The position numbers were made by a program, and so were the translations under genes. DNA of 64,000 bases from Minisyncoccota bacterium (lineage in GTDB: Bacteria > Patescibacteriota > Minisyncoccia > Phycocordibacterales > UBA9973), in NCBI GenBank assembly GCA_041663185.1, contig JBAZQY010000001.1, positions 233,087-297,086 on the forward strand. The letters are read 5' to 3'. This document shows positions 11,802 to 55,513 of this stretch, piece after piece (the first letter of the stretch is position 1; each line of letters starts with the position of its first letter). The notes below the pieces were generated by a model. It made no database searches, was not told the origin of the DNA, and worked only from the letters and a program-made list of their open reading frames with translations.

Positions 11802-13169
11802 ATGAATAACACAAGAGAGCTTTGGAACCGATGTTTAGGAGAAATTGAACTAAGTATTTCAAAGGCTAATTTTACTACTTGGTTTAAAAATACTTCAATC
11901 ATTAAAGAAGATGCTGGGGTAATATATGTCGGTGTCCCAAATGAATTCGTTAAAGATTGGCTGTATAACAAATTTCATAAACTTATCCTCAAAACCCTGA
12001 TTAGTAATGAGGAAAACATCAGAAATGTTGAATATATAATACACAAACAGGAACAAAAATATGAACAAGCTATTAAAAACAGTGACATTGTTAATATAAA
12101 ATCTCCAATAAGCAATAACAAAGAACTTCCGTTGAATGATTTATATATTAATAAAGAAGACAACTTAAATCCAAAATATAATTTTAATTCTTTTATTGTT
12201 GGTCCTTTTAATGAGTTGGCTTACGCTGTAGCACAAGCCATAATTGCAAACCCTGGACAAAACTACAACCCATTTTTTGTTTATGGTGGAACTGGTTTGG
12301 GTAAAACCCATATGATTGAAGCAATAGGGAACACAATAAAAATCAAACATCCAGGTAAAAAAGTTTATTATGTTAGTTTGGAAAAATTTGCAATTGATTA
12401 TATTAATTCAATTCAAAACAAAAACCCAAACTCCTTTAAAGAAAAGTATCGTAAATATGATGTTATTATTATGGATGATATTCAATTTATTTCCGGTAAA
12501 GACAAAACCCAAGAAGAATTATTCCATCTTTTTAATACCTTATATGAAAACAATAAACAAATAATCTTCTCTTCTGATAAGCACCCAAACTTTATCCAGG
12601 GATTAGAAGAAAGACTCCAGTCGCGCTTTGCTTCTGGAATGACTGTTCAGATAGTTGAACCAGATTATGAATCTCGTGTCGCAATTATAAAAGCAAAATT
12701 CGAATCGAGTAGTTGTATTATGGAACCAGAAGCTATTTCCTATTTAGCTGAAGCTTTAAATGGAAATATCCGTGAGCTAGAAGGAAGTTTAAATACCATC
12801 ATCTGTCAATCACAACTAAAAAATAAGTCTTTAACCCTACTAGAAATCAAAACCCTTATTAAAAACAATATCCGACCCAAAAAGACTGTGGCGATTAAAG
12901 ACATTGTCCAAATTGTCGCTGATCAATATGGAATTCCCGAGGAGGTCATCTATGAGAAAACAAGAAGAAAAGAAATTGTCCGAGCTCGTCAGGTTGCAAT
13001 GTATTTATTACGAGAAGATTTTAATGTTTCCTATCCACTTATAGGTAAAAAGTTGGGGGACAGAGATCATACAACTGTTATTCACTCACACCTAAAAATA
13101 AAAAGTGATTTAAAAACTGACCCATCATTATTACAAGAGATTGAAAAAATAAGAATTATGTTTAAGTAG
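11802..13169 (+). CDS. dnaA: chromosomal replication initiator DnaA
   Basis: Walker A GGTGLGKTH; domain IV ARQVAMYLLRE ... DHTTVIHS. Confidence 0.95.
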   Translation: MNNTRELWNRCLGEIELSISKANFTTWFKNTSIIKEDAGVIYVGVPNEFVKDWLYNKFHKLILKTLISNEENIRNVEYIIHKQEQKYEQAIKNSDIVNIKSPISNNKELPLNDLYINKEDNLNPKYNFNSFIVGPFNELAYAVAQAIIANPGQNYNPFFVYGGTGLGKTHMIEAIGNTIKIKHPGKKVYYVSLEKFAIDYINSIQNKNPNSFKEKYRKYDVIIMDDIQFISGKDKTQEELFHLFNTLYENNKQIIFSSDKHPNFIQGLEERLQSRFASGMTVQIVEPDYESRVAIIKAKFESSSCIMEPEAISYLAEALNGNIRELEGSLNTIICQSQLKNKSLTLLEIKTLIKNNIRPKKTVAIKDIVQIVADQYGIPEEVIYEKTRRKEIVRARQVAMYLLREDFNVSYPLIGKKLGDRDHTTVIHSHLKIKSDLKTDPSLLQEIEKIRIMFK

Positions 13170-13382
13170 TGGTAATAAGTCTGTTGAAAACTTGGGTTTA
13201 TAAAAAAATAATTTGTGGAAAAAAAATCATTTATAAAAAAATAAAAAGTAATTAACAAATTAAATTAAAAACAAAAAAAATAAAACAAAAAATATCTTTA
13301 TATTAAAAGACAAAAAAGAAATCCACATATTAACACCCATAATAATAGTAGTAAGTATTAATAAGATAATTTATAACATATT
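13170..13382. promoter_or_regulatory. candidate oriC: AT-rich dnaA-dnaN spacer with DnaA-box-like 9-mers
   Basis: tttgtggaaaa (revcomp TTTTCCACA) and aaatccaca; long A/T tracts; a further tatccaca lies upstream of dnaA near 11727. Confidence 0.5.
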
Positions 13383-14480
13383 ATGAAAATAGAATGCTCC
13401 ATAGATAAAATAAAAAATGCCCTAATCTCTGTTGAAAGAATAACCGGAAAAAACTTAACCCTCCCGGTTCTTGGATCAGTACTTTGGGTCGCAACCAACA
13501 AAACACTAAAACTTCGAGCCACGAACCTAAATATTGGAATAGAAGTTGAAATCCCAGCCCGGGTTGAAAAAGAGGGTGTTGTTGCGGTTCGAGGAGATGT
13601 TCTTTCTTCTTTATTTTCTATTTTACAGGGTGATTTAATTGTTAAATTTGAATTAATAAATGGTAATTTACTTGTTAAAACAAAAACTAGTACAATTTTA
13701 CTAAAAAGTATTTCACATGAAGATTTTCCCACAATTCCAATTGTTGAAGGGGAGAAACTTTTGGTTCCGAGTAAAAAGTTTATTGAAGGAATAAAATCTG
13801 TTTATTATAGTGCCTCTGTTTCCGAAGTAAAACCAGAAATTGGAAGCGTCTATATTTATCCAGAGGAGGACATGCTGGTCTTTGTTTCCACAGACTCGTT
13901 TCGTTTGGCAGAGAAAAAAATAAAAATAAAACAAAAATTATCTTTTGGTGGAATATTAATTCCATTTAAAAATGTTGTCGAAATTATTAAGGTTTTTGAT
14001 GGAATGAATGATGACATAACTATAACTCTTCAGAAAAATCAAATTTCTTTTAAAACAGAAAATATATATTTAACCTCACGCGTTGTTGATGGAAGCTTTC
14101 CTGATTATAAACAAATCATTCCCAAAAACCCCACCACCAAATCAGTTGTTTTAAAACAAGATTTTATTTCCTCACTTAAAATTTCTAATATTTTTTCCGA
14201 TAAATTCAATCAAATTGTTTTAACCATTAGACCAGAAGAAAAAATTTTTGAAGTTGAATCTAAAAATACTGATATTGGAGAAAACACCACCCTTCTGGCT
14301 GGAGCTCTATCTGGAGAAGATGTATCGGCCAATTTTAATTATAAATATGTCCTAGATTGTTTTCAATCAATTGCTGGAGATAGTTTAAGTATTGAATTGA
14401 GTGGTAATAGTAAACCAATGATTATTAGAGGTGTCGGCGACCCATCATTTATGTATTTGGTCATGCCGATGAATCGATAA
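13383..14480 (+). CDS. dnaN: DNA polymerase III beta sliding clamp
   Basis: 365 aa; position after dnaA; three-domain clamp length and an N-terminal region typical of DnaN. Confidence 0.9.
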   Translation: MKIECSIDKIKNALISVERITGKNLTLPVLGSVLWVATNKTLKLRATNLNIGIEVEIPARVEKEGVVAVRGDVLSSLFSILQGDLIVKFELINGNLLVKTKTSTILLKSISHEDFPTIPIVEGEKLLVPSKKFIEGIKSVYYSASVSEVKPEIGSVYIYPEEDMLVFVSTDSFRLAEKKIKIKQKLSFGGILIPFKNVVEIIKVFDGMNDDITITLQKNQISFKTENIYLTSRVVDGSFPDYKQIIPKNPTTKSVVLKQDFISSLKISNIFSDKFNQIVLTIRPEEKIFEVESKNTDIGENTTLLAGALSGEDVSANFNYKYVLDCFQSIAGDSLSIELSGNSKPMIIRGVGDPSFMYLVMPMNR

Positions 14481-30487: not shown

Positions 30488-32971
30488 ATGGCTAAGAAAA
30501 AGGAGGGGAAACAAAAGATAGTTTTGCTTGATTCACATGCGATTATTCATCGGGCTTATCATGCTCTCCCTGAGTTCATGAATTCTCGTGGTGAGCCAAC
30601 TGGGGCTATATATGGGCTTGCTACGATGCTTTTCAAGATCATTACTGACCTAAAGCCGGATTATATTGTGGCTTGTTTTGATTTACCCAAGAAGACATTT
30701 CGTCACGAAGCTTATGATAATTACAAAGCTGGCCGAGCCAAGGCTGATGAGGCACTAGTTGCTCAACTTATTCGCGCTCGCGATTTTTTTAAAGCATTAT
30801 CTGTCCCAATGTATGAATGCGAAGGATTTGAAGCTGATGATTTACTCGGGACAATAACCGAACAATTAAAAAACAAAAAAGATAAAGTTGATATCATTAT
30901 TGCTTCGGGGGATATGGATACACTCCAAATTGTCGAAGGGGACTGGATTCAAGTTTACACTCTTAAAAAAGGAATTAATGACACAATTTTATATAACGAG
31001 AAAAAAGTTTTTGAACGTTTTGGATTTAAGCCGAAAAATTTACCGGATTATAAAGGATTGCGGGGTGACCCATCGGATAATATTATTGGTATAAAAGGAA
31101 TTGGGGAAAAAACTGCTACAACTCTTATTTCAGAGTACGGAACAATTGAAAATATTTATAAGGCGATAAAAAAGAGCGATAGTGAATTAAAGAAAATAGG
31201 TATAACCGACCGAATTCTCACCCTTCTCAAAGAAGGTGAAGAAGAAGCGCTGTTTTCGAAAACATTAGCCACGATCCGAATGGACGCGCCGATAAAATTT
31301 GAATTACCTAAAAAAATTTGGAAGGAAACAGTTGATAAAAATAATGTTGCAAGTTTTTTCAGAGAACTTGAATTCAAAAGTTTGCAAAATAGATTTTTGA
31401 ATGTTTTGGGGGAAGAAGGGGCCGAAATCCGAGAAAGCTCCTCTCAGCAAGGTCCTCGGACGAGGGAGGAGAGGGGCCAGACCATTGCCGATAGGACTTT
31501 CTCGGATTTCGGCCCAACAACTACTGATAATGAAAAATTCAAAAAAGCGCAAATTGCTTATTGGCTTTTGAATTCGGAGCGGACAGACCCAGATATTGAT
31601 GAAGTATCCCACTACAAAGGAAGTGAATCACTTGATGAAGCCACCAAACTTCTTGAAGCCGATATTAAAAAAGAAAATTTATCTTACGTTTATGAAAATA
31701 TTGAAATCCCAATTATACCTATAATTGACAAGATGGAAAAGCAGGGGATTTTAGTTGATATTGCTTATTTAAAAAAAATCTCAAAAGAGTATCACAAAGA
31801 TTTAGCAGAGATTGAGAAAAATATATGGAAGCAAGCGGGTGTAGAATTTAATATAAACTCTCCAAAGCAAATTAGTGACATTCTTTTTAATAAGTTAGGA
31901 CTTTCAATGAAAGGAATAAAAAAAAGTGCTGGTGGAGCTATCTCAACCCGGGAGAGCGAGCTCGAAAAACTTCGCGACCTACATCCAATAATTAACGAAA
32001 TCTTAAAACACCGCGAACTCCAGAAACTTCTTTCAACATATATTGATACTATCCCATCATCAGTCGGGGAAGATGGTCGGCTACACGCCAGTTTCATTCA
32101 AGCTGGGACGACAACAGGAAGATTTTCTTCTAATAATCCAAACTTACAAAATATTCCAATAAAAACTGAACGGGGGAAAAACATTCGGAATGCTTTCATC
32201 GCCCCCGAGGGTTATGTTTTAGCTTCATTTGACTACTCGCAAATTGAACTTCGGGTGGCAGCGCTCATGTCGCAGGATCCCTACTTTGTAAAAGTTTTTG
32301 AGGAAGGACGTGATATTCATAGTGCTGTGGCGATGAAAGTTTTCGGAGTAAAAGAAAATGAAGTAACTCATGAAATGCGTCGTCGGGCTAAAGTTATTAA
32401 TTTTGGAATTTTATATGGCATGGGTGTAAATGCACTTCGTCAAAACCTTGCTCGTACAGAAATGGGCTCTCTCAAAAAATCTGAAGATATCTCACGTGCC
32501 GACGCGCAAATATTTTATGATAATTATTTTGCTCAGTTTCCAACAATTGCTGGCTATCTTGAGAGTATCAAAAATTTTGCAAAGTGTAATGGATACACTG
32601 AAACCTTATTTGGTCGCAAAAGATATTTCCCTGGTATCAAGTCGCCGATTCCTTTTATCAGAGCAATGGCCGAGCGAATGGCAACAAATGCTCCGATTCA
32701 AGGAACTGCCACAGCCGACATTATAAAAATAGGAATGAAAAAGGCTGAAGATGCTTTGCAAAAAGCTGGTCTTTCGGAAGTCGTGCGACTGGTATTGCAA
32801 GTTCACGATGAATTGGTCTATGAGGTAAAAGAAGATAAGGTTAATGAGGCGAGTCAAATTATTGAAAAAGCCATGAAAGAAGTCATTCCGGAAGAGTTTT
32901 TGAAAGGCAAAGAGAAGGTTCCTTTACTGGTATCATTCTCGTATGGCCGAACTTGGGGTGATTTAAAATAG
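30488..32971 (+). CDS. polA: DNA polymerase I (5'-3' exonuclease + polymerase; no proofreading domain evident)
   Basis: DYSQIELR, RRRAKVINFGILYGMG, QVHDELVYE; carries a GC-rich in-frame insertion at about 31418-31515. Confidence 0.95.
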   Translation: MAKKKEGKQKIVLLDSHAIIHRAYHALPEFMNSRGEPTGAIYGLATMLFKIITDLKPDYIVACFDLPKKTFRHEAYDNYKAGRAKADEALVAQLIRARDFFKALSVPMYECEGFEADDLLGTITEQLKNKKDKVDIIIASGDMDTLQIVEGDWIQVYTLKKGINDTILYNEKKVFERFGFKPKNLPDYKGLRGDPSDNIIGIKGIGEKTATTLISEYGTIENIYKAIKKSDSELKKIGITDRILTLLKEGEEEALFSKTLATIRMDAPIKFELPKKIWKETVDKNNVASFFRELEFKSLQNRFLNVLGEEGAEIRESSSQQGPRTREERGQTIADRTFSDFGPTTTDNEKFKKAQIAYWLLNSERTDPDIDEVSHYKGSESLDEATKLLEADIKKENLSYVYENIEIPIIPIIDKMEKQGILVDIAYLKKISKEYHKDLAEIEKNIWKQAGVEFNINSPKQISDILFNKLGLSMKGIKKSAGGAISTRESELEKLRDLHPIINEILKHRELQKLLSTYIDTIPSSVGEDGRLHASFIQAGTTTGRFSSNNPNLQNIPIKTERGKNIRNAFIAPEGYVLASFDYSQIELRVAALMSQDPYFVKVFEEGRDIHSAVAMKVFGVKENEVTHEMRRRAKVINFGILYGMGVNALRQNLARTEMGSLKKSEDISRADAQIFYDNYFAQFPTIAGYLESIKNFAKCNGYTETLFGRKRYFPGIKSPIPFIRAMAERMATNAPIQGTATADIIKIGMKKAEDALQKAGLSEVVRLVLQVHDELVYEVKEDKVNEASQIIEKAMKEVIPEEFLKGKEKVPLLVSFSYGRTWGDLK
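31418..31515 (+). repeat. GC-rich element bounded by a perfect 19-bp inverted repeat, in frame inside polA
   Basis: gggccgaaatccgagaaag ... ctttctcggatttcggccc; core ggacgagggaggagaggggccagacc. Confidence 0.65.
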
Positions 32972-44379: not shown

Positions 44380-45390
44380 ATGAAAACATATACATTCCAT
44401 GTTTCTGGTACGCATTGTGCCTCGTGCAAAATCTTGATTGAAGATGTTTTAGGTGAACATGATTTTGTAAAAAGCGTTACAGTTAATTTAAAAAAAGAAA
44501 CTCTTGAATTAGAGACAGATAGTGAGCAAAGTATAGAAGAGATTGCAGTAATGTTAACAAGTAAAATAAAACCAAATGGTTATACTCTTTCAGTTGAGAA
44601 AATAATTAAAGAGCAAGGAGATGGGAGTATTATTTGGAAAGCGATACCCATTGGTCTTCTATTTCTTGCTCTATTTTTCATTTTGCAAAAATCTGGAATT
44701 CTAAATTTTGGAATTGGCGGGGAGACTACTCCAGTAACAAGTTTTATTATTGGGTTAATTGCTTCGGTATCTAGTTGTTTGGCAATTGTTGGAGGTCTTG
44801 TCTTGTCACTTTCAGCGAAAATTACTAAAGACGATAACCAATCCACAAAAAAACCATTTATCCTTTTCCATGCCGGAAGATTGATTGGATTTGCTATCTT
44901 GGGTGGGGTTCTTGGTTTAATTGGGGAGGCGATTGGGATAAACTTTCTTTTTTCAGCAATCTTGGGATTAATTGCTTCAGCTGTTATGATTGCTCTAGGG
45001 CTTAATCTGCTCGGGATATTTAAGAAAAATAAAATAACTCTGCCGAGTGGAATCTTTTCTTTTTTTAGAAAAGTAGAACATGCGACTTGGGCACCGATTT
45101 TAGTTGGTCTGGGAACATTTTTTCTACCATGCGGGTTTACTCAATCAATGCAGATATCAGCACTCTCTAGTGGTTCATTTATGTCTGGATTTCTGATAAT
45201 GTTTGCCTTTGCCCTTGGAACCTTGCCGGTGCTCGCATTACTTTCTTTTAGTTCTGTTTCTTTTTCAAAATCAAAATATGCCCCACTATTTTTCAAATCA
45301 GCTGGAGTAGTCGTAGTCGGGCTTGGAGCATTTGCCCTTCTGTCAGGTCTTGCAGGAGTCGGTATTATTAATCCATTATTTAATCTTTAA
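44380..45390 (+). CDS. HMA-domain (CxxC) fused to polytopic membrane domain; putative metal transporter/chaperone
   Basis: N-terminal GTHCASCK; about 8 TM helices. Confidence 0.55.
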   Translation: MKTYTFHVSGTHCASCKILIEDVLGEHDFVKSVTVNLKKETLELETDSEQSIEEIAVMLTSKIKPNGYTLSVEKIIKEQGDGSIIWKAIPIGLLFLALFFILQKSGILNFGIGGETTPVTSFIIGLIASVSSCLAIVGGLVLSLSAKITKDDNQSTKKPFILFHAGRLIGFAILGGVLGLIGEAIGINFLFSAILGLIASAVMIALGLNLLGIFKKNKITLPSGIFSFFRKVEHATWAPILVGLGTFFLPCGFTQSMQISALSSGSFMSGFLIMFAFALGTLPVLALLSFSSVSFSKSKYAPLFFKSAGVVVVGLGAFALLSGLAGVGIINPLFNL

Positions 45391-45399
45391 AAAGGGTAA

Positions 45400-45484
45400 G
45401 AAGCAAAGCAAATTATATTCTAAAAAAACTGGACGAGGGAGGACGAGGGGCCAGACATTTTTTTATAAAATAATTTGCTTTGCT
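45400..45484 (+). repeat. hairpin element with a GC-rich core related to the polA insert
   Basis: 17-bp IR gaagcaaagcaaattat/ataatttgctttgcttc flanking ggacgagggaggacgaggggccagac. Confidence 0.55.
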
Positions 45485-45495
45485 TCTGAAATATT

Positions 45496-47602: not shown

Positions 47603-48025
47603 ATGAGATATTTAGGGATAGATTATGGAACAAAAAGGGTAGGATTAGCACTTTCCGACGAAGATGGGAAAATGGCTTTTCCGTACAAAATAATCAAAAA
47701 TGACCTTGAATTAGTGGATACTATTCATAATATTTGTGGACAAGAAGAAATTTCGGCCATTGTCCTTGGTGAATCGACCGATTTATCGGGCAACCCAAAC
47801 AAAATTATGGGGAGTATTGAAGAATTTAAAAGAAATCTCGAGGGAGAACTTGATTTACCAATTTATTTTGAAAAAGAATTTATGACGACAATTGAGGCTC
47901 GAGGTAGAGCCGGTAAAGAAGTAAATAATGCTAAAAAAGTAGCCAAGGGGAAACAAGCGGCGGCGGACGCGTCCGCCGCCGCCCTAATCCTCGGGCGGTA
48001 TTTAGATAGAAAAAATAATAATTAA
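47603..48025 (+). CDS. ruvX: RuvX/YqgF Holliday junction resolvase-like nuclease
   Basis: MRYLGIDYGTKRVGLALSD; Ala-rich tail encoded by a 28-bp GC palindrome. Confidence 0.85.
   Translation: MRYLGIDYGTKRVGLALSDEDGKMAFPYKIIKNDLELVDTIHNICGQEEISAIVLGESTDLSGNPNKIMGSIEEFKRNLEGELDLPIYFEKEFMTTIEARGRAGKEVNNAKKVAKGKQAAADASAAALILGRYLDRKNNN
47957..47984. repeat. perfect 28-bp GC palindrome inside the ruvX coding sequence
   Basis: gcggcggcggacgcgtccgccgccgc. Confidence 0.9.
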
Positions 48026-51637: not shown

Positions 51638-51710
51638 GCGCGATTAGCTCAGTTGGTAGAGCAACCCGTTTACACCGGGAAGGTCGGGGGTTCGAGTCCC
51701 TCATCGCGCA
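51638..51710 (+). tRNA. tRNA-Val (anticodon UAC)
   Basis: acceptor GCGCGAT/ATCGCGC, D-arm GCTCAGTTGGTAGAGC, anticodon loop TTTACAC, T-arm GGGGGTTCGAGTCCCTC. Confidence 0.85.
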
Positions 51711-51817
51711 CAGCGATAAATACAAAGCAAATTTATTTGCTTTGTATGAGGGCGAGAAAGCCGGAGCGCGTCGGCGTGAGGCAGGGTCGTGCGAATTTTC
51801 AGTAGAAAATTACGCCT

Positions 51818-51840
51818 GACCGAGTCCCTCATCGCGCACA
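51818..51840 (+). repeat. 21-bp direct repeat of the tRNA-Val 3' end
   Basis: cgagtccctcatcgcgcacag identical to 51690-51713. Confidence 0.8.
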
Positions 51841-51848
51841 GTTATTTT

Positions 51849-51920
51849 GCCCTCGTAGTTAAATGGATATAACTGCGGACTTCTAAGCCGCTATTGTAGG
51901 TTCGATTCCTGCCGAGGGCA
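51849..51920 (+). tRNA. tRNA-Arg (anticodon UCU)
   Basis: acceptor GCCCTCG/CGAGGGC, D-arm GTTAAATGGATATAAC, anticodon loop CTTCTAA, T-arm GTAGGTTCGATTCCTGC. Confidence 0.8.
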
Positions 51921-52067
51921 CAAAAGAGTGAATTTAAAAAATAATAACTGCTTATTATTTTTTCTCTTTTGTGAGACAGAGCGATGTTTTGCTAGTAGGC
52001 AAAACCGCGAGTCGGGGTCGCGACCGAGATGAGTGGCGACGAGCCGAGAGTTGTGGCCAATTAATTT

Positions 52068-52856
52068 ATGAAAATAAAAATTTTATACGAAGATAAAAAT
52101 ATTTTAGTTATCGATAAACCAGCGGGTATTTCAGTGCATGGAGATGGTAAAACCAAAGAAGAAACAATTTCTGATTGGGTGCTTTCAAATTACCCATCAA
52201 TAAAAAATGTCGGAGAGCCAATTAAATTAAAAATTAAGAATGAGGAATTAAGAATTAATCGGCCGGGAATTGTCCACCGCTTAGATAAAGAAACTTCGGG
52301 AATTTTGATTATTGCTAAAAATCAAAAAACTTTTCTTTTTTTGAAGGAGCAATTTATGAACCATAAAGTTAAAAAAGTTTACCGAGCATTTGTTTATGGT
52401 TATGTTTCTGATCCCAAGGCTTCACTTCTTACCGGTGGAAGGGGAGTAATAAATGTTCCAATAGGTCGCTCATCAAAAGATATCAGGGCATATACTGCTG
52501 GGCGTGGAGCGAGAGCCCCACTTCGTGAGGCTGTGACAGAATATATTATTTTAAATAAGTTTACTGATTCGAGCGATGAAAATGAAAAGAAAAAAATTGA
52601 ACATCAGTATTCTTATATTGAAGCATATCCAAAAACTGGGCGAACTCATCAGATTAGAGTTCATATGCGTTATATTAATCACCCAGTAGTTTCTGACCCG
52701 ATTTATCGTGGAATAAAAGAGAAATCTTTAGGCATGAAGCGCCTCGCGCTTCATGCCTATTCGGCAACTTTTACTCTTCCAAATGGAAAAGTGAAAACTG
52801 TAGAATCTCCACTTCCGGCTGATTTCAAAAAGGTGTTAAAAACATTTTTGAATTAG
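52068..52856 (+). CDS. RluA-family pseudouridine synthase
   Basis: catalytic HRLDKETSGILIIAKN. Confidence 0.85.
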   Translation: MKIKILYEDKNILVIDKPAGISVHGDGKTKEETISDWVLSNYPSIKNVGEPIKLKIKNEELRINRPGIVHRLDKETSGILIIAKNQKTFLFLKEQFMNHKVKKVYRAFVYGYVSDPKASLLTGGRGVINVPIGRSSKDIRAYTAGRGARAPLREAVTEYIILNKFTDSSDENEKKKIEHQYSYIEAYPKTGRTHQIRVHMRYINHPVVSDPIYRGIKEKSLGMKRLALHAYSATFTLPNGKVKTVESPLPADFKKVLKTFLN

Positions 52857-53026: not shown

Positions 53027-53665
53027 ATGAGAACAAAAACTCTCGAGCAGAACACGGCGCAAGATTTCGCTGGACTGCAAATCGACCAGTTGAGCAAATT
53101 GCGCAACGGTAACATCACCTTTGAACAGGTGAAATGGTTTAACAACCTTACATTCGAGCAACGCGAAGCGTTGATGGGCAAGCAACCCGAAATGGTGCTT
53201 TTCCTGAAACTGCTTTCCGGAGCTGAAACGCTGATGCTTGATGCCCTCGATGGCACAGAGACATTGGCAACCGCTAAGGAAGTTTTTCCATCGGGTATTG
53301 ATGGCGACTTCAAAAACTGGGGCACCAACAAGTCCAGTATCGCTACCAAAGAACAGGCGGTAGAGGTACACGAACTAGTAAAGGATGGAACCTTTGCACA
53401 GATGTTTGGTTCTCTCGGGACCGATCTGGATAAGTGGTGTTTAACACAAGCCCAGATAAAGAACTTTTGTAAAAAATATCCCAACTGGTTACGCAAAGAC
53501 GGATATGTGACTTTCTTCCTATTTAAGGTTGAAGATCACTTCTTCGTTGCTCGCGTGCGCGTGCGCTCTGGTGGCTTGGGCGTCGACGTCGGCGGGTTCG
53601 GGGGCGGCGTCGTGTGGGGTTCTGACGTCCTTCCTCGTGTGGTAGTCCCGCAACAGGTTGCTTAG
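53027..53665 (+). CDS. DGR variable (target) protein; VR encoded at the C-terminus
   Basis: 212 aa; about 50% GC against about 33% in the flanks; last 39 codons form the VR. Confidence 0.8.
   Translation: MRTKTLEQNTAQDFAGLQIDQLSKLRNGNITFEQVKWFNNLTFEQREALMGKQPEMVLFLKLLSGAETLMLDALDGTETLATAKEVFPSGIDGDFKNWGTNKSSIATKEQAVEVHELVKDGTFAQMFGSLGTDLDKWCLTQAQIKNFCKKYPNWLRKDGYVTFFLFKVEDHFFVARVRVRSGGLGVDVGGFGGGVVWGSDVLPRVVVPQQVA
53536..53654 (+). repeat. DGR variable repeat (VR)
   Basis: 119 bp aligned to TR; 21 mismatches, all at TR adenines. Confidence 0.85.
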
Positions 53666-53687
53666 ACACTTAAATAATTTGATTCTT

Positions 53688-53721
53688 AATCCCTTTGATA
53701 CTTTGTCAGAGGGATTTTTTT
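53688..53721 (+). terminator. hairpin + T-run after the target gene
   Basis: aatccctttgatactttgtcagagggattttttt. Confidence 0.5.
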
Positions 53722-53963
53722 ATGTATAATTAAAATACAAGCGTGCGATACTTCATGGTTACGGCTACGAAGTCACTTTTGTGGAAAACCATTATTGAGA
53801 ATTTTGTTGGTTACGGCTTACAAAAGAGTGGTAATGTTTTTTCAAATTAAAAAATAATTTAGTTGGTGTAGTTTGCTTGTGAATTTTGATATTCCAAATG
53901 ATATACAGCACGATTCCTAATGGAAACATGTTTGAATCGGCAGTGAAATAGATGGCACACTAC

Positions 53964-54082
53964 ACAATTCTTCGTTGCTAACGTGAACGTGAACTCTGAT
54001 GGCTTGAACGTCAACGTCAACAGGTTCGAGAACGACAACGTGTGGAATTCTGACGTCCTTCCTCGTGTGGTAGTCCCGCAAC
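53964..54082 (+). repeat. DGR template repeat (TR), non-coding, rich in AAC triplets
   Basis: aacgtgaacgtgaac ... gagaacgacaac; identical 3' 40 nt (IMH-like) with the VR. Confidence 0.85.
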
Positions 54083-54100
54083 TAAATATTTCTCCCCTGA

Positions 54101-54442
54101 TTAATTCTTGGGAGTTTTTATTTCAAGTCCCTTTTTCCAACCACCTAACATTCGCCCAATTTCATCAAGTTGTGTTGACAGTGTAATGTATTTTTCGGTT
54201 GGTAAACATTTATTTTCCCAAGAAATCTGAAGGAAAAATTTTACTCCATCTAATTTTGAAATTGAGATAGTTAATCGATTGATTTTATTTTCTCCTGAAA
54301 GATATTGAGAAACAAAAATATTTTCCAAAAGTTCTAAAAAATATCCTTCAATTTTTTCTCCAATAGTGCGACGATACATCTTAGGGAAGTCAATAAAAAT
54401 CTTAAACCAGATAGAATAAGCACCTTTTGCTTTTATGAGCAC
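54101..54442 (-). CDS. avd: Avd-like accessory variability determinant (four-helix-bundle)
   Basis: 113 aa from a GTG start; C-terminal LDEIGRMLGGWKK matches the Avd/IVS family; lies between TR and RT on the opposite strand. Confidence 0.65.
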   Translation of the reverse strand: MLIKAKGAYSIWFKIFIDFPKMYRRTIGEKIEGYFLELLENIFVSQYLSGENKINRLTISISKLDGVKFFLQISWENKCLPTEKYITLSTQLDEIGRMLGGWKKGLEIKTPKN

Positions 54443-54453
54443 CTGAGGTGCTC

Positions 54454-54463
54454 GGGGGGGGGG
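54454..54463. repeat. G10 homopolymer tract (C10 on the avd strand) next to the 17-bp hairpin gagcacctgaggtgctc
   Basis: ten consecutive G at 54454-54463 in the avd/RT divergent spacer. Confidence 0.9.
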
Positions 54464-54493
54464 TAATTAATGAATTCATATAATTAAAATAAA

Positions 54494-55513
54494 ATGAAAA
54501 AATTTGATAATAAATATAATGATATCATATCTATAGAAAACTTACTTTTAGCTTGGCAGGAATTTCTAAAAGGCAAAAGAAAAAAGAAAGATGTTTGTGA
54601 ATTTCAATTAAAACTTATGGACAATATTTTTGACTTACATAATGATTTAAAAAACAAAACATACAAACACGGTGAATATATTGCTTTTAAAATTAATGAC
54701 CCCAAACCAAGAGATATTCATAAAGCAAGTGTCAGAGATAGATTACTTCATCATGCTATATACAGAATACTTTATCCATATTTTGATCAAAAATTCATTT
54801 ATGACTCGTATTCTTGTAGATTGGGTAAGGGGACTCATAAAGCCATAAACAGATTCAGAGATTTTTCTCGAATTGTCTCAAAAAACAGTACAAGGTCTTG
54901 CCTTGTACTAAAATGCGACATCAGAAAGTTCTTTGCTAGTATTAATCACCAAGTATTGAAAAACATTTTAGTAAAATACATGGATGATAAAGATACTCTT
55001 TGGCTTATTAACCAAATTGTAGACAGTTTTCAAACCACTTACAACTTTACCAAACTAACGCTATCGCGTTCCTTTGGTAAAGGACTTCCTTTGGGCAACT
55101 TAACTAGTCAACTGCTTGTGAATATTTATATGAATGAATTTGACCAATTTGTAAAAAACAAACTAAAGATAAAATACTATATCCGCTACGCGGATGATTT
55201 TGTCATTTTGCAAAATGACAAAATGAAACTTCTTGATAATTTAGATCGAATGAAAGAATTTTTAAGTAATGAATTAAAATTAAATATGCATCCAGATAAA
55301 ATATTTATTAAAACACTTTATTCTGGTATTGATTTCTTGGGATGGGTAAGTTTCCCAAACCATAGAGTTTTAAGAACATCAACCAAAAAGAGGATGTTTA
55401 GAAATTTGGAGAAGTGTAATTATAAAAAAGAAAGTGTAAATTCTTATTTGGGGATGTTGTCGCATGGAGATGGGTATAAGCTAGAAAATTTGATAAAAAT
55501 TTGCTTAAAATAG
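54494..55513 (+). CDS. DGR-type reverse transcriptase
   Basis: RT motifs [30 protein letters not shown] (DGR-style LGxxxSQ), RYADDFVIL (YADD). Confidence 0.9.

What the first reader, a model, noticed from the sequence alone, without database searches (positions are those of the whole stretch)
31418..31515. GC-rich, inverted-repeat-bounded element inserted in frame in polA
A perfect 19-bp inverted repeat (gggccgaaatccgagaaag / ctttctcggatttcggccc) brackets a 60-bp GC-rich core (ctcctctcagcaaggtcctcggacgagggaggagaggggccagaccattgccgataggact) inside the polA ORF. It encodes a linker (EGAEIRESSSQQGPRTREERGQTIADRTFSDFGP) between the 5'-nuclease and polymerase domains. GC content here is well over 60% in a 33% genome. 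The element is 99 bp (33 codons) long, which is consistent with a miniature mobile element surviving in a permissive interdomain linker.
Basis: seen in the sequence. Interest (0 to 1): 0.6.

Follow-up and report, generated by a model that had tools for sequence, protein, structure and literature searches.

The report
Hairpin repeat element inside polA
A 97-base GC-rich hairpin sitting in frame in the DNA polymerase I gene of a tiny uncultured (CPR) bacterium is one copy of an apparently undescribed family of small repeat elements that colonise exposed loops of DNA polymerase I, DNA ligase and other DNA-repair enzymes, much as the palindromic elements of Rickettsia do.

Summary
A perfect 19-bp inverted repeat (31419-31437 / 31497-31515) brackets a 59-bp core. 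The unit is 97 bp, not 99, with 61% GC in a 34% GC window. It lies in frame in polA (codons 311-343).

Many PolA orthologues lack the segment. AlphaFold puts it in a disordered loop between the 5'-nuclease and polymerase parts.

The same conserved core (GCAAGGTCCTCGG ... CCAGACCATTGC, a stem with three bulges) occurs in more than 55 non-redundant copies, almost all in Patescibacteria/CPR:
- a degenerate second copy in this window (45399-45487);
- an in-frame copy in ligA of the same genome;
- in-frame copies in UvrD, UvrC, RecJ, IleS and an Nramp transporter;
- many intergenic copies.

Both orientations occur at the PolA and LigA sites. The outer arms differ between copies but stay Watson-Crick complementary: 24 of 36 pairs have changes on both sides, and G-U pairs are almost absent. 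I found no consistent target-site duplication and no transposase.

My best reading is a non-autonomous, structure-defined selfish DNA hairpin, like the Rickettsia palindromic elements. Its mobilising machinery is unknown. The enrichment in DNA-metabolism genes is unexplained.

The parts
30488..32971 (+). Host gene polA (DNA polymerase I, 827 aa). The 5'-nuclease domains span aa 10-277 and the family-A polymerase domain spans aa 426-825.
   Evidence: ORF list. Pfam PF02739, PF01367 and PF00476. 100% identical to P0001, 'DNA polymerase [Candidatus Paceibacterota bacterium]'.
31419..31515 (+). The whole hairpin element (97 bp, 60.8% GC). It lies in frame and covers codons 311-343.
   Evidence: The covariance model of the family scores it 105 bits. 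AlphaFold gives residues 309-344 pLDDT below 50 and no secondary structure, between helices 297-307 and 345-361.
31419..31437 (+). Left outer arm GGGCCGAAATCCGAGAAAG. The sequence varies between copies; only its pairing with the right arm is kept.
   Evidence: 19/19 complementary. Covariation across 31 copies.
31438..31446 (+). Left half of the inner stem (CTCCTCTCA). It holds a conserved bulge and mismatches and is conserved across the 'AAAG' subfamily.
   Evidence: Alignment A3. Pair table.
31447..31459 (+). Box A, GCAAGGTCCTCGG. It is the 5' half of the conserved core stem and carries two single-base bulges (the C's of GGTC-C-T-C-GG).
   Evidence: Identical in all PolA-linker copies fetched through protein similarity, in either orientation. 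It was used as a search anchor.
31460..31476 (+). Apical variable region, subtype I: ACGAGGGAGGAGAGGGG. Other copies carry a different short hairpin or a 9-nt loop here.
31477..31488 (+). Box B, CCAGACCATTGC. It is the 3' half of the conserved core stem and carries a bulged A.
31489..31496 (+). Right half of the inner stem (CGATAGGA).
31497..31515 (+). Right outer arm CTTTCTCGGATTTCGGCCC.
45399..45487 (+). Second, degenerate copy of the same family. It is intergenic, 8 nt after the stop codon of ORF 44380-45390. It has perfect 18-bp AT-rich arms (AGAAGCAAAGCAAATTAT / ATAATTTGCTTTGCTTCT). Its apex GGACGAGGGAGGACGAGGGGCCAGAC is shared with the polA copy, and box A is eroded.
   Evidence: Covariance-model hit of 33.5 bits, E about 1e-6. 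DNA fold -25.2 kcal/mol, z -8.1. The 12-mer GAGGGGCCAGAC occurs only at these two places in the window, with 0 expected. Sequence read.

Best explanation
The segment is one copy of a dispersed family of small (about 75-140 bp), non-coding, GC-rich hairpin elements of Patescibacteria (CPR). It behaves as selfish DNA and, where it lands in frame and without stop codons in an exposed loop, it is tolerated inside genes.

Anatomy:
- A conserved apex-proximal stem, GCAA-GGTC-c-T-c-GG / CC-A-GACC-a-TTGC, with three fixed single-base bulges.
- A variable apical loop or mini-hairpin.
- A moderately conserved inner stem (AAAG-c-TCCT... / ...AGGA-CTTT in this subfamily).
- Outer arms of 15-20 bp whose sequence is free but which stay strictly Watson-Crick complementary.

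Shown here:
- It is an insertion relative to many PolA orthologues.
- It sits in a disordered interdomain loop.
- Copies occur at many unrelated sites, including at least three in this genome (polA, ligA and one intergenic).
- Either orientation occurs at the same site and both are translatable.
- The arms co-vary without G-U pairs.

Inferred:
(a) The element spreads at the DNA level. The conserved bulged stem would be the part recognised, in folded single-stranded or cruciform form, by a machinery that has not been identified.
(b) Once resident, the inverted repeat drives inversion of the core in place. It also drives arm-to-arm correction by template switching within the hairpin, which would keep the arms perfect while their sequence drifts.
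(c) Selection then removes every copy that breaks a reading frame. The surviving genic copies therefore cluster in a few permissive loops, such as the PolA linker and the LigA zinc-finger loop.

In PolA the consequence is 33 extra, probably unstructured residues between the 5'-nuclease and the rest of the enzyme. No function for the host is implied.
For: Insertion: 120 PolA orthologues align on both sides of a hypervariable linker. The deeper clades have short K/E-rich linkers, and element-bearing and empty linkers are interspersed among close relatives.

Permissive site: the Pfam domains end at aa 277 and resume at aa 426. AlphaFold gives pLDDT 27-30 for residues 309-344.

Family and dispersal:
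- An exact core pattern found 24 loci in species-representative genomes and 40 in metagenomes. This gives 56 non-redundant copies, of which 2 look like chance hits, and almost all are CPR.
- Up to 5 exact plus 1 diverged copies occur in one MAG (JAIFWI01).
- The window holds a second copy.
- ligA of the same MAG holds a copy whose inner 67 bp are 94% identical to the polA copy, while the outer arms are unrelated.

Hosts confirmed by Pfam: UvrD, class-I aaRS (IleS-like), LigA (two sites), UvrC, RecJ and Nramp. The neighbours of intergenic copies include RNase H and an ExoX-like exonuclease.

Both orientations:
- Three of the PolA copies fetched are reversed and encode SPSSNGLA..PRTL, which is the minus-strand frame of the window element.
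- At the LigA zinc loop, 39 inserts are in the same orientation and 28 in the opposite one, out of 120 orthologues.

DNA-level pairing: 89.9% of cells are paired against 29-48% when the partner columns are slid. 24 of 36 pairs have changes on both sides (0 of 500 shuffles reach this). All four Watson-Crick types occur at most arm positions. My tally of the per-pair table gives about 16 G-U cells out of 1116.

Foreign composition: 51 of 52 copies are GC-richer than their flanks (mean 0.52 against 0.38).

Other checks: the element is real in independent assemblies from NCBI, JGI and ENA. It matches no known RNA family and nothing in phage, plasmid or viral collections.
Against: No transposition event, transposase or autonomous partner was seen.

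No consistent target-site duplication was found. The mean flanking direct repeat is 2.35 nt against 1.79 +/- 0.27 in the control, and only two copies have 7-9 bp repeats.

The terminal repeats are not conserved between copies, unlike classical MITE ends.

Copy number per genome is low, about 3-6.

Most copies were found with an exact pattern for the two boxes, so the apparent invariance of the boxes is partly built in by the search. PolA peptides found independently do show eroded versions (P0011, P0014, P0067, P0081, P0115).

The window and its 92%-identical relative L001 differ at 5 arm positions with no compensation. Arm maintenance is therefore not universal.

The recurrence of the element at exactly the same two protein loops, and the excess of DNA-metabolism host genes, are not predicted by a purely random selfish-insertion model.
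Confidence: 0.72

Rival explanations
1. It is a host-serving cis element. The conserved bulged hairpin would be a shared DNA-level signal, for example a cruciform or hairpin bound by one protein. It would couple the genes of DNA uptake, replication and repair (polA, ligA, rnhA, recJ, uvrD, uvrC, an exoX-like gene, comEC) into one regulatory or processing circuit. Its presence inside coding regions would then be functional rather than parasitic.
For: Six of the nine distinct genic sites are in replication or repair genes: the PolA linker, two LigA sites, UvrD, UvrC and RecJ. Several intergenic sites also adjoin such genes: rnhA|comEC in at least 5 lineages, recJ|rnhA, ligA|gatA, and upstream of an ExoX-like exonuclease. 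By my rough estimate such genes are about 10-12% of coding length, which gives a binomial P of about 2e-4 for the genic sites. The core sequence is kept in both orientations, as expected for recognition of double-stranded or cruciform DNA. The polA and ligA copies of one genome share an identical 39-nt core.
Against: Close relatives lack the element, or carry unrelated hairpin families (T2, T3, T4) at the same PolA site. 53 of 120 LigA orthologues have no T1-family insert. Eroded and nested remnants are common. Other hosts (IleS, Nramp) and neighbours (dnaK, smpB, sodA, folD) do not fit a regulon. An internal coding position is an odd place for a regulator site. The GC excess and patchiness look like foreign DNA.
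Confidence: 0.12
2. It is a programmed intragenic inverton. The 19-bp repeats would be the substrate of a site-specific invertase that flips the 59-bp core within a population, switching PolA and LigA between two loop isoforms.
For: Both orientations occur at the same codon phase in PolA and LigA. The reading frame stays open after an in-place flip: the minus-strand frame reads AEIRESPIGNGLAPLLPRPRTLLRGAFSDFG, which matches what P0068 and others encode.
Against: The orientation differences seen are between species, not within one population. No invertase gene is linked to the element. A resolvase lies about 9 kb downstream of polA in L007 but is not recurrent. The two loop peptides are disordered and have no evident function. 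The same element also sits in intergenic DNA. Passive flipping by recombination or template switching between the arms explains the pattern without a programme.
Confidence: 0.06
3. It is a structured RNA element. The hairpin would act in the mRNA as an RNase III site, a translational pause between domains, or a small RNA precursor.
For: The predicted fold is very stable on either strand. The only weak Rfam matches are generic microRNA-like hairpins. The position between two domains would suit a co-translational pause.
Against: The arms show strict Watson-Crick covariation with almost no G-U pairs, whereas RNA helices normally tolerate them. The element is used in both orientations relative to transcription (roughly 60:40), which would present complementary, different loops and bulges in the RNA. 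No Rfam family reaches its threshold. There is no terminator-like T run.
Confidence: 0.05
4. It is a native linker that acquired a local inverted duplication by chance or by a single replication error, and is unrelated to anything else.
For: The 19-bp arm itself is unique in the window.
Against: The core recurs in more than 55 copies elsewhere and twice more in the same genome.
Confidence: 0.01

Closest known systems
Rickettsia palindromic elements (RPEs). Ogata et al. 2000/2002, as summarised in PMC10969869.
   Same: Both are small palindromic repeats in a reduced, AT-rich bacterial genome. Both insert in frame into unrelated protein-coding genes as well as non-coding DNA. Both add a peptide at places compatible with the protein fold. 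Neither has an identified transposase.
   Different: The phylum differs (Patescibacteria, not Alphaproteobacteria), and no sequence relationship is shown. Copy number here is lower. The family-defining part here is a short bulged core stem, while the arms are free to vary. The same two loops (PolA linker, LigA zinc loop) are occupied again and again, in both orientations and by several unrelated hairpin families. Host genes are skewed towards DNA metabolism.
Bacterial MITEs (for example Correia, ERIC, RUP, Nezha)
   Same: They are short, non-coding, hairpin-forming and multi-copy, and are occasionally intragenic with in-frame fusions.
   Different: MITEs are defined by conserved terminal inverted repeats matching a parent IS, and by target-site duplications. 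Here the termini vary between copies, no consistent duplication is seen, and no parent IS was found.
GC clusters and 'byp' elements of yeast mitochondrial genomes (from my own knowledge)
   Same: They are GC-rich palindromic mini-elements that spread in a very AT-rich genome and land inside protein-coding genes.
   Different: Byp elements interrupt the frame and are skipped by the ribosome. All genic copies here are in frame and free of stop codons, so no bypass is needed. The genetic system is unrelated.
Quasipalindrome template-switch mutagenesis (Ripley; Lovett and co-workers; from my own knowledge)
   Same: It is a replication mechanism that copies one arm of an imperfect inverted repeat from the other. 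It produces perfect palindromes and paired 'compensatory' changes without selection, and it can invert the intervening segment.
   Different: It is a mutational process, not an element family. I invoke it only to explain arm maintenance and flipping, and it was not demonstrated here.
Intragenic invertons (Chanin et al. 2024; from my own knowledge)
   Same: An inverted-repeat-flanked segment inside a coding region is found in both orientations, each giving an open frame.
   Different: Those are flipped within populations by dedicated invertases. Here only between-lineage differences are documented and no invertase is linked.

Membership tests
Rickettsia palindromic elements (RPE) | Palindromic repeat of roughly 100-150 bp that folds into a stable hairpin | tested here: met
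   97 bp; -57 to -60 kcal/mol; z -5.3 and -6.7.
Rickettsia palindromic elements (RPE) | Several dispersed copies per genome, in coding and non-coding DNA | tested here: met
   polA, ligA and one intergenic copy in this genome. Up to 6 copies in MAG JAIFWI01.
Rickettsia palindromic elements (RPE) | In-frame insertion into unrelated protein genes, at surface positions compatible with the fold | tested here: met
   PolA, LigA (two sites), UvrD, UvrC, RecJ, IleS-like and Nramp. The PolA insert lies in a loop with pLDDT below 50.
Rickettsia palindromic elements (RPE) | Sequence similarity to one of the RPE families; occurrence in Rickettsia | not testable with these tools
   No RPE consensus sequences were available here. 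The organisms are Patescibacteria, so I claim analogy, not homology.
MITE | Terminal inverted repeats conserved among copies and shared with a parent IS | tested here: not met
   Outer-arm identity between copies is 0.26-0.41. Only complementarity is kept. No IS with matching ends was found in the flanks.
MITE | Target-site duplication of fixed length | tested here: not met
   Flanking direct repeats are barely above the control: 2.35 against 1.79 +/- 0.27 nt. Five copies have repeats of 5 nt or more, against 3.9 expected. The boundaries are themselves uncertain.
MITE | Small size, no coding capacity, multiple copies | tested here: met
   75-140 bp; more than 55 copies.
REP/BIME elements with RAYT transposase | Extragenic imperfect palindromes of 20-40 bp with a conserved GTAG or CGTC head | tested here: not met
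   The elements are 75-140 bp, often lie inside genes, and I saw no GTAG/CGTC head when reading the alignments.
REP/BIME elements with RAYT transposase | A RAYT (Y1 HUH) gene flanked by the repeats | not tested
   Only flanks of up to 10 kb were available. No such Pfam hit appears in the gene tables returned.
Intragenic inverton | Both orientations coexisting in one population, and a linked invertase | not testable with these tools
   Only assembled contigs are available. Both orientations are seen between lineages.
Translational-bypass (byp-like) inserts | The insert breaks the frame or carries stop codons and must be skipped | tested here: not met
   Every genic copy lies in a continuous open frame. 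The window copy is open in 4 of 6 frames.
Any Rfam RNA family | Score at or above the family's gathering threshold | tested here: not met
   Only tRNAs pass in the window. At relaxed thresholds the element matches only generic microRNA hairpin models, far below threshold.

The most novel reading that the evidence does not exclude
The family is not a random parasite. It would be a structure-specific DNA hairpin whose spread or maintenance runs through the lagging-strand and gap-processing machinery. It would therefore preferentially end up in, or be retained at, the genes of that machinery: polA, ligA, rnhA, recJ, uvrD, uvrC and an exoX-like gene. Two routes are conceivable. One is cis-preferential action of the nascent enzymes near their own genes. 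The other is that the hairpin has been recruited as a shared cruciform-type control signal for a DNA-uptake and repair circuit in CPR bacteria. The PolA linker and the LigA zinc loop would then be dedicated docking sites at which cassettes from several hairpin families are exchanged and flipped.
Probability: 0.1. Interest if true: 0.85.

Novelty: new variant of a known kind. Interest (0 to 1): 0.6.

Why it matters
If this is right, the candidate phyla radiation has its own counterpart of the Rickettsia palindromic elements. These would be small hairpins that rewrite exposed loops of essential enzymes. There are at least five sequence families at the PolA site and more at the LigA site, with rapid turnover and orientation flips.

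This matters in four ways:
- Annotation: odd GC-rich, low-complexity loops in CPR proteins would be mobile DNA, not adaptive domains.
- Phylogenetics and structure prediction of PolA and LigA in these lineages.
- Palindrome instability in organisms with a minimal set of repair genes.
- A natural map of insertion-tolerant sites in Pol I and NAD-dependent ligase.

The unexplained skew towards DNA-metabolism genes and the strictly Watson-Crick co-variation of the arms point to a DNA-level mechanism that could be tested with existing metagenome reads.

Tried and rejected
- Peptide search with a chimeric query. I concatenated the element's translations in all used frames to list host proteins. Nothing scored, probably because serine-rich words swamped the candidate list. 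One of three searches was lost this way.
- Profile of 14 PolA-borne element peptides against 1.8 billion representative proteins. Only two weak hits came back. The peptide is too short for a database of this size.
- Exact look-up of the window's own PolA to fetch the rest of its contig. It is not on record.
- Rfam, at curated and at relaxed thresholds. Only tRNAs and generic microRNA-hairpin noise appeared.
- Phage, plasmid and viral-contig collections. No match.
- Target-site duplications. No consistent signal.
- The idea that the outer arms are specific to the host locus, or copied from the target. Rejected: arm identity is the same within and between the PolA and LigA sites (0.41, 0.41, 0.38).
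- The idea that the inner element is much better conserved than the flanking coding DNA. Not supported once the two boxes fixed by the search pattern are discounted: about 0.76 against 0.74-0.76.
- Other GC-rich islands of the window as further copies. They turned out to be tRNAs, alanine-rich coding sequence (47900-48022) or the variable region of a diversity-generating retroelement.
- Literature searches for palindromic or MITE-like elements in CPR/Patescibacteria. Nothing relevant was found.
Full report
**1. What is in the sequence**

The polA ORF runs from 30488 to 32971 on the + strand and encodes 827 aa. Inside it lies a perfect 19-bp inverted repeat: GGGCCGAAATCCGAGAAAG at 31419-31437 and its complement at 31497-31515, with 59 nt between them. 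The arm occurs nowhere else in the window; 0.03 matches are expected at up to 3 mismatches.

The unit is 97 bp and 60.8% GC. The window is 34.1% GC. Either strand folds into one long hairpin: -57.2 and -60.1 kcal/mol, z -5.3 and -6.7.

The element covers codons 311-343.

**2. It is an insertion in a permissive loop**

The protein is 100% identical to a 'Candidatus Paceibacterota' (CPR) DNA polymerase found in NCBI, JGI and ENA assemblies. It is therefore not an assembly artefact.

In an alignment of the 120 best orthologues (71-100% identity), everything is conserved except the stretch between ...FKSLQNRFLNVL and KAKIAFWLLNSER. The deeper clades have a short Lys/Glu/Asp-rich linker there. In the crown group, empty linkers and several kinds of insert are interspersed among close relatives.

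Pfam places the 5'-nuclease domains at aa 10-277 and the polymerase domain at aa 426-825. An AlphaFold model built on 58 orthologues gives pLDDT 27-30 and no secondary structure for residues 309-344. This stretch lies exactly between helices 297-307 and 345-361.

**3. The same nucleotide element occurs in both orientations**

About thirty orthologues carry the peptide type ...SSSQGPR(I/T)...GQTIAQ.T.... About ten carry ...GQSPSSNGLA...RGDPRTLxEGAL.... The second type is the translation of the reverse complement of the first. The window's own minus strand reads AEIRESPIGNGLAPLLPRPRTLLRGAFSDFG in the corresponding frame.

DNA fetched for seven orthologues confirms this. Two boxes, GCAAGGTCCTCGG and CCAGACCATTGC, are identical in all of them. 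They are forward in L001, L006 and L007 and reversed in L003, L004 and L008.

The outer arms, by contrast, are quite different in each lineage yet still complementary. Examples are GGCCAGAGTCAGAGAAAG (18/18 paired) in L006 and GGTGGAAGTTCCCAAAG (17/17) in L007.

What is conserved is therefore nucleic acid, not protein.

**4. It belongs to a dispersed family**

I scanned for AAGGTCCTCGG-N(10-40)-CCAGACCATTG. The scan returned 24 loci from species-representative genomes and 40 from metagenomes. This makes 56 non-redundant copies, of which two (L022, L045) lack a hairpin and look like chance matches.

The named genomes are Paceibacteria, Nomurabacteria, Vogelbacteria, Parcubacteria and Saccharibacteria. 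One MAG (JAIFWI01) has five exact copies plus a diverged one. Phage, plasmid and viral collections have none.

A covariance model built from 31 copies scores the polA copy 105 bits. It also finds a second copy in the window at 45399-45487 (33.5 bits). That copy is intergenic and has perfect 18-bp AT-rich arms. Its apex, GGACGAGGGAGGACGAGGGGCCAGAC, is shared with the polA copy, but box A is eroded.

The ligase of the same MAG is P0155. Its NCBI accessions lie next to those of the polymerase. It carries an in-frame copy in its zinc-finger loop. The inner 67 bp are 94% identical to the polA copy and the outer arms are unrelated.

The source genome thus has at least three copies.

**5. Where the copies sit**

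In-frame genic copies occur in these proteins:
- the PolA linker;
- the LigA zinc-finger loop;
- the LigA adenylation domain;
- UvrD, where L009 carries two copies;
- UvrC;
- RecJ;
- an IleS-like synthetase;
- the N-terminus of an Nramp transporter.

All three reading phases are used. Copies are stop-free about twice as often as composition-matched shuffles.

Intergenic copies include a recurrent rnhA|comEC site, recJ|rnhA, ligA|gatA and a site upstream of an ExoX-like exonuclease. Others lie next to dnaK, smpB, sodA, folD and further genes.

Six of the nine distinct genic sites are in replication or repair genes. By my rough estimate such genes make up 10-12% of coding length, which gives P of about 2e-4. 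I cannot explain this skew. Low expression and long flexible linkers may be enough, but see the novel reading.

**6. Hot spots shared by several hairpin families**

At the PolA site, close relatives carry unrelated inserts. All of them are also hairpins:
- T2: PLLIEEG..TPPQKGGEE (L005, z -8.8);
- T3: SPPAKGECPEGEGV..SPSQG (L073, z -5.8);
- T4: QEQENFHSFT..ADKNS (L074, z -3.1).

Composite linkers with remnants of one element next to another also exist (P0006, P0036, P0052).

At the LigA zinc loop, the 120 orthologues divide as follows:
- 39 carry this family in the same orientation as the gene;
- 28 carry it in the opposite orientation;
- 24 carry other inserts, from at least four more families;
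- 29 have short loops, some of which look like deletion footprints.

All core subtypes occur at both sites.

**7. Anatomy and what it implies**

The core is a stem, GCAA-GGTC-c-T-c-GG / CC-A-GACC-a-TTGC, with three fixed bulges. The apex is variable: subtype I as in the window, a different short hairpin, or just a 9-nt loop. The inner stem (AAAG-c-TCCT...) carries conserved imperfections. The outer arms do not.

Counts on 31 copies:
- 89.9% of cells form pairs, against 29-48% when the partner columns are slid;
- 24 of 36 pairs have changes on both sides, and 0 of 500 shuffles reach this;
- most arm positions show all four Watson-Crick pair types;
- by my tally of the per-pair table, only about 16 of 1116 cells are G-U.

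An RNA helix under selection normally tolerates G-U. Strict Watson-Crick pairing, together with use in both transcriptional orientations, points to complementarity at the DNA level.

Arm identity between copies is low and is no higher within a host site than between sites: 0.41, 0.41 and 0.38. The arms are therefore neither conserved ends nor copied target DNA. No consistent target-site duplication is present.

**8. Mechanism**

Shown: the segment is an insertion; it belongs to a dispersed family; it sits in a tolerated loop; both orientations occur; and the arms co-vary at the DNA level.

Inferred:
- The element spreads as DNA, and the bulged core is the part recognised, in folded form, by an unidentified enzyme.
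- The inverted repeat then promotes inversion in place and arm-to-arm correction by template switching. This is a known property of quasipalindromes (my own knowledge). It would keep the arms perfect while their sequence drifts with host base composition.
- Purifying selection leaves only in-frame, stop-free copies, and these pile up in the few loops that tolerate 25-45 extra residues.

The window and its 92%-identical relative differ at five arm positions without compensation. The correction is therefore not constant.

**9. Comparison with what is known**

The closest analogue is the Rickettsia palindromic element, described as an extreme case of in-frame MITE-like insertion (PMC10969869, read). 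The present family works like an RPE, but it cannot be filed as one, because the phylum differs and homology is untestable here. It cannot be filed as a MITE either, because conserved terminal repeats and target duplications were tested and not found.

Full-text searches found nothing on such elements in CPR bacteria.

I therefore rate it a new variant of a known kind, of moderate to good interest. Its main open questions are the mobilising machinery, the recurrent use of the same two loops, and the skew towards DNA-metabolism genes.

Noticed in passing
window 53027-55513: A diversity-generating retroelement. The variable region 53537-53654 lies at the 3' end of ORF 53027-53665 and is GC-rich and A-poor. 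It is 81% identical over 118 nt to a template region at 53965-54082. All 22 mismatches fall on template adenines. A reverse-transcriptase-like ORF follows at 54494-55513.
   Followed up: partly
window 51747-51846: A GC-rich stretch that folds strongly (-64.9 kcal/mol for 51717-51866) lies between tRNA-Val (51638-51711) and tRNA-Arg (51849-51921). It repeats the 3' end of tRNA-Val (CCCTCATCGCGCACAG). ARAGORN and Rfam do not call it, even at relaxed thresholds.
   Followed up: partly
window 51962-52071: Another GC-rich (0.61) non-coding stretch lies just upstream of ORF 52068-52856. It matches no Rfam family.
   Followed up: no
L005 4146-4322; L073 3886-4071; L074 3886-4080: Three other hairpin-forming insert families (T2, T3, T4) occupy the same PolA linker in close relatives. 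L005 belongs to a PolA that is 88% identical to the window's.
   Followed up: partly
LigA orthologues P0123-P0242 (zinc-finger loop): 91 of 120 ligases carry an insert between the two cysteine pairs of the zinc finger. Besides the family studied here, there are at least four other recurring peptide types, for example SNSSKSTNISLLGNFSARPSRPAQVF, GKGLSSRSEAERGKSLRS and ISSGKALRRPTGPSREIFQQKNIRAFQDD, as well as composites.
   Followed up: partly
L019 2424-2527 and 2999-3102; L061 175-278 and 775-898: In two lineages the RNase HI gene is flanked on both sides by copies of the element in the same orientation. Five or more lineages have a copy between rnhA and comEC.
   Followed up: partly
L009 4909-5007 and 3997-4101: One UvrD gene carries two copies of the family. 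The N-terminal one is diverged (peptide SRVLGSPGLRTPARPARK).
   Followed up: no
window 31373-31401: The conserved coding sequence just upstream of the insertion site (FKSLQNRFL, TTCAAAAGTTTGCAAAATAGATTTTTGAA) is itself predicted to form a 12-bp AT-rich hairpin in the window and several orthologues (window, L007, L008, L073). It might contribute to making this spot fragile.
   Followed up: no
window 11802-14480: dnaA and dnaN, identified by reading their N-terminal sequences, lie about 17 kb upstream of polA. The replication origin is therefore probably inside the window, and polA would be co-oriented with replication.
   Followed up: no
PolA P0032 and LigA P0190 (both list a longest contig of 256,668 bp): In a second genome the PolA linker and the LigA loop both seem to carry another insert type (EVQP.../EVKP...RGLTS, also seen in PolA P0012 and P0020). 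This hints that whichever hairpin family is present in a genome occupies both sites.
   Followed up: no
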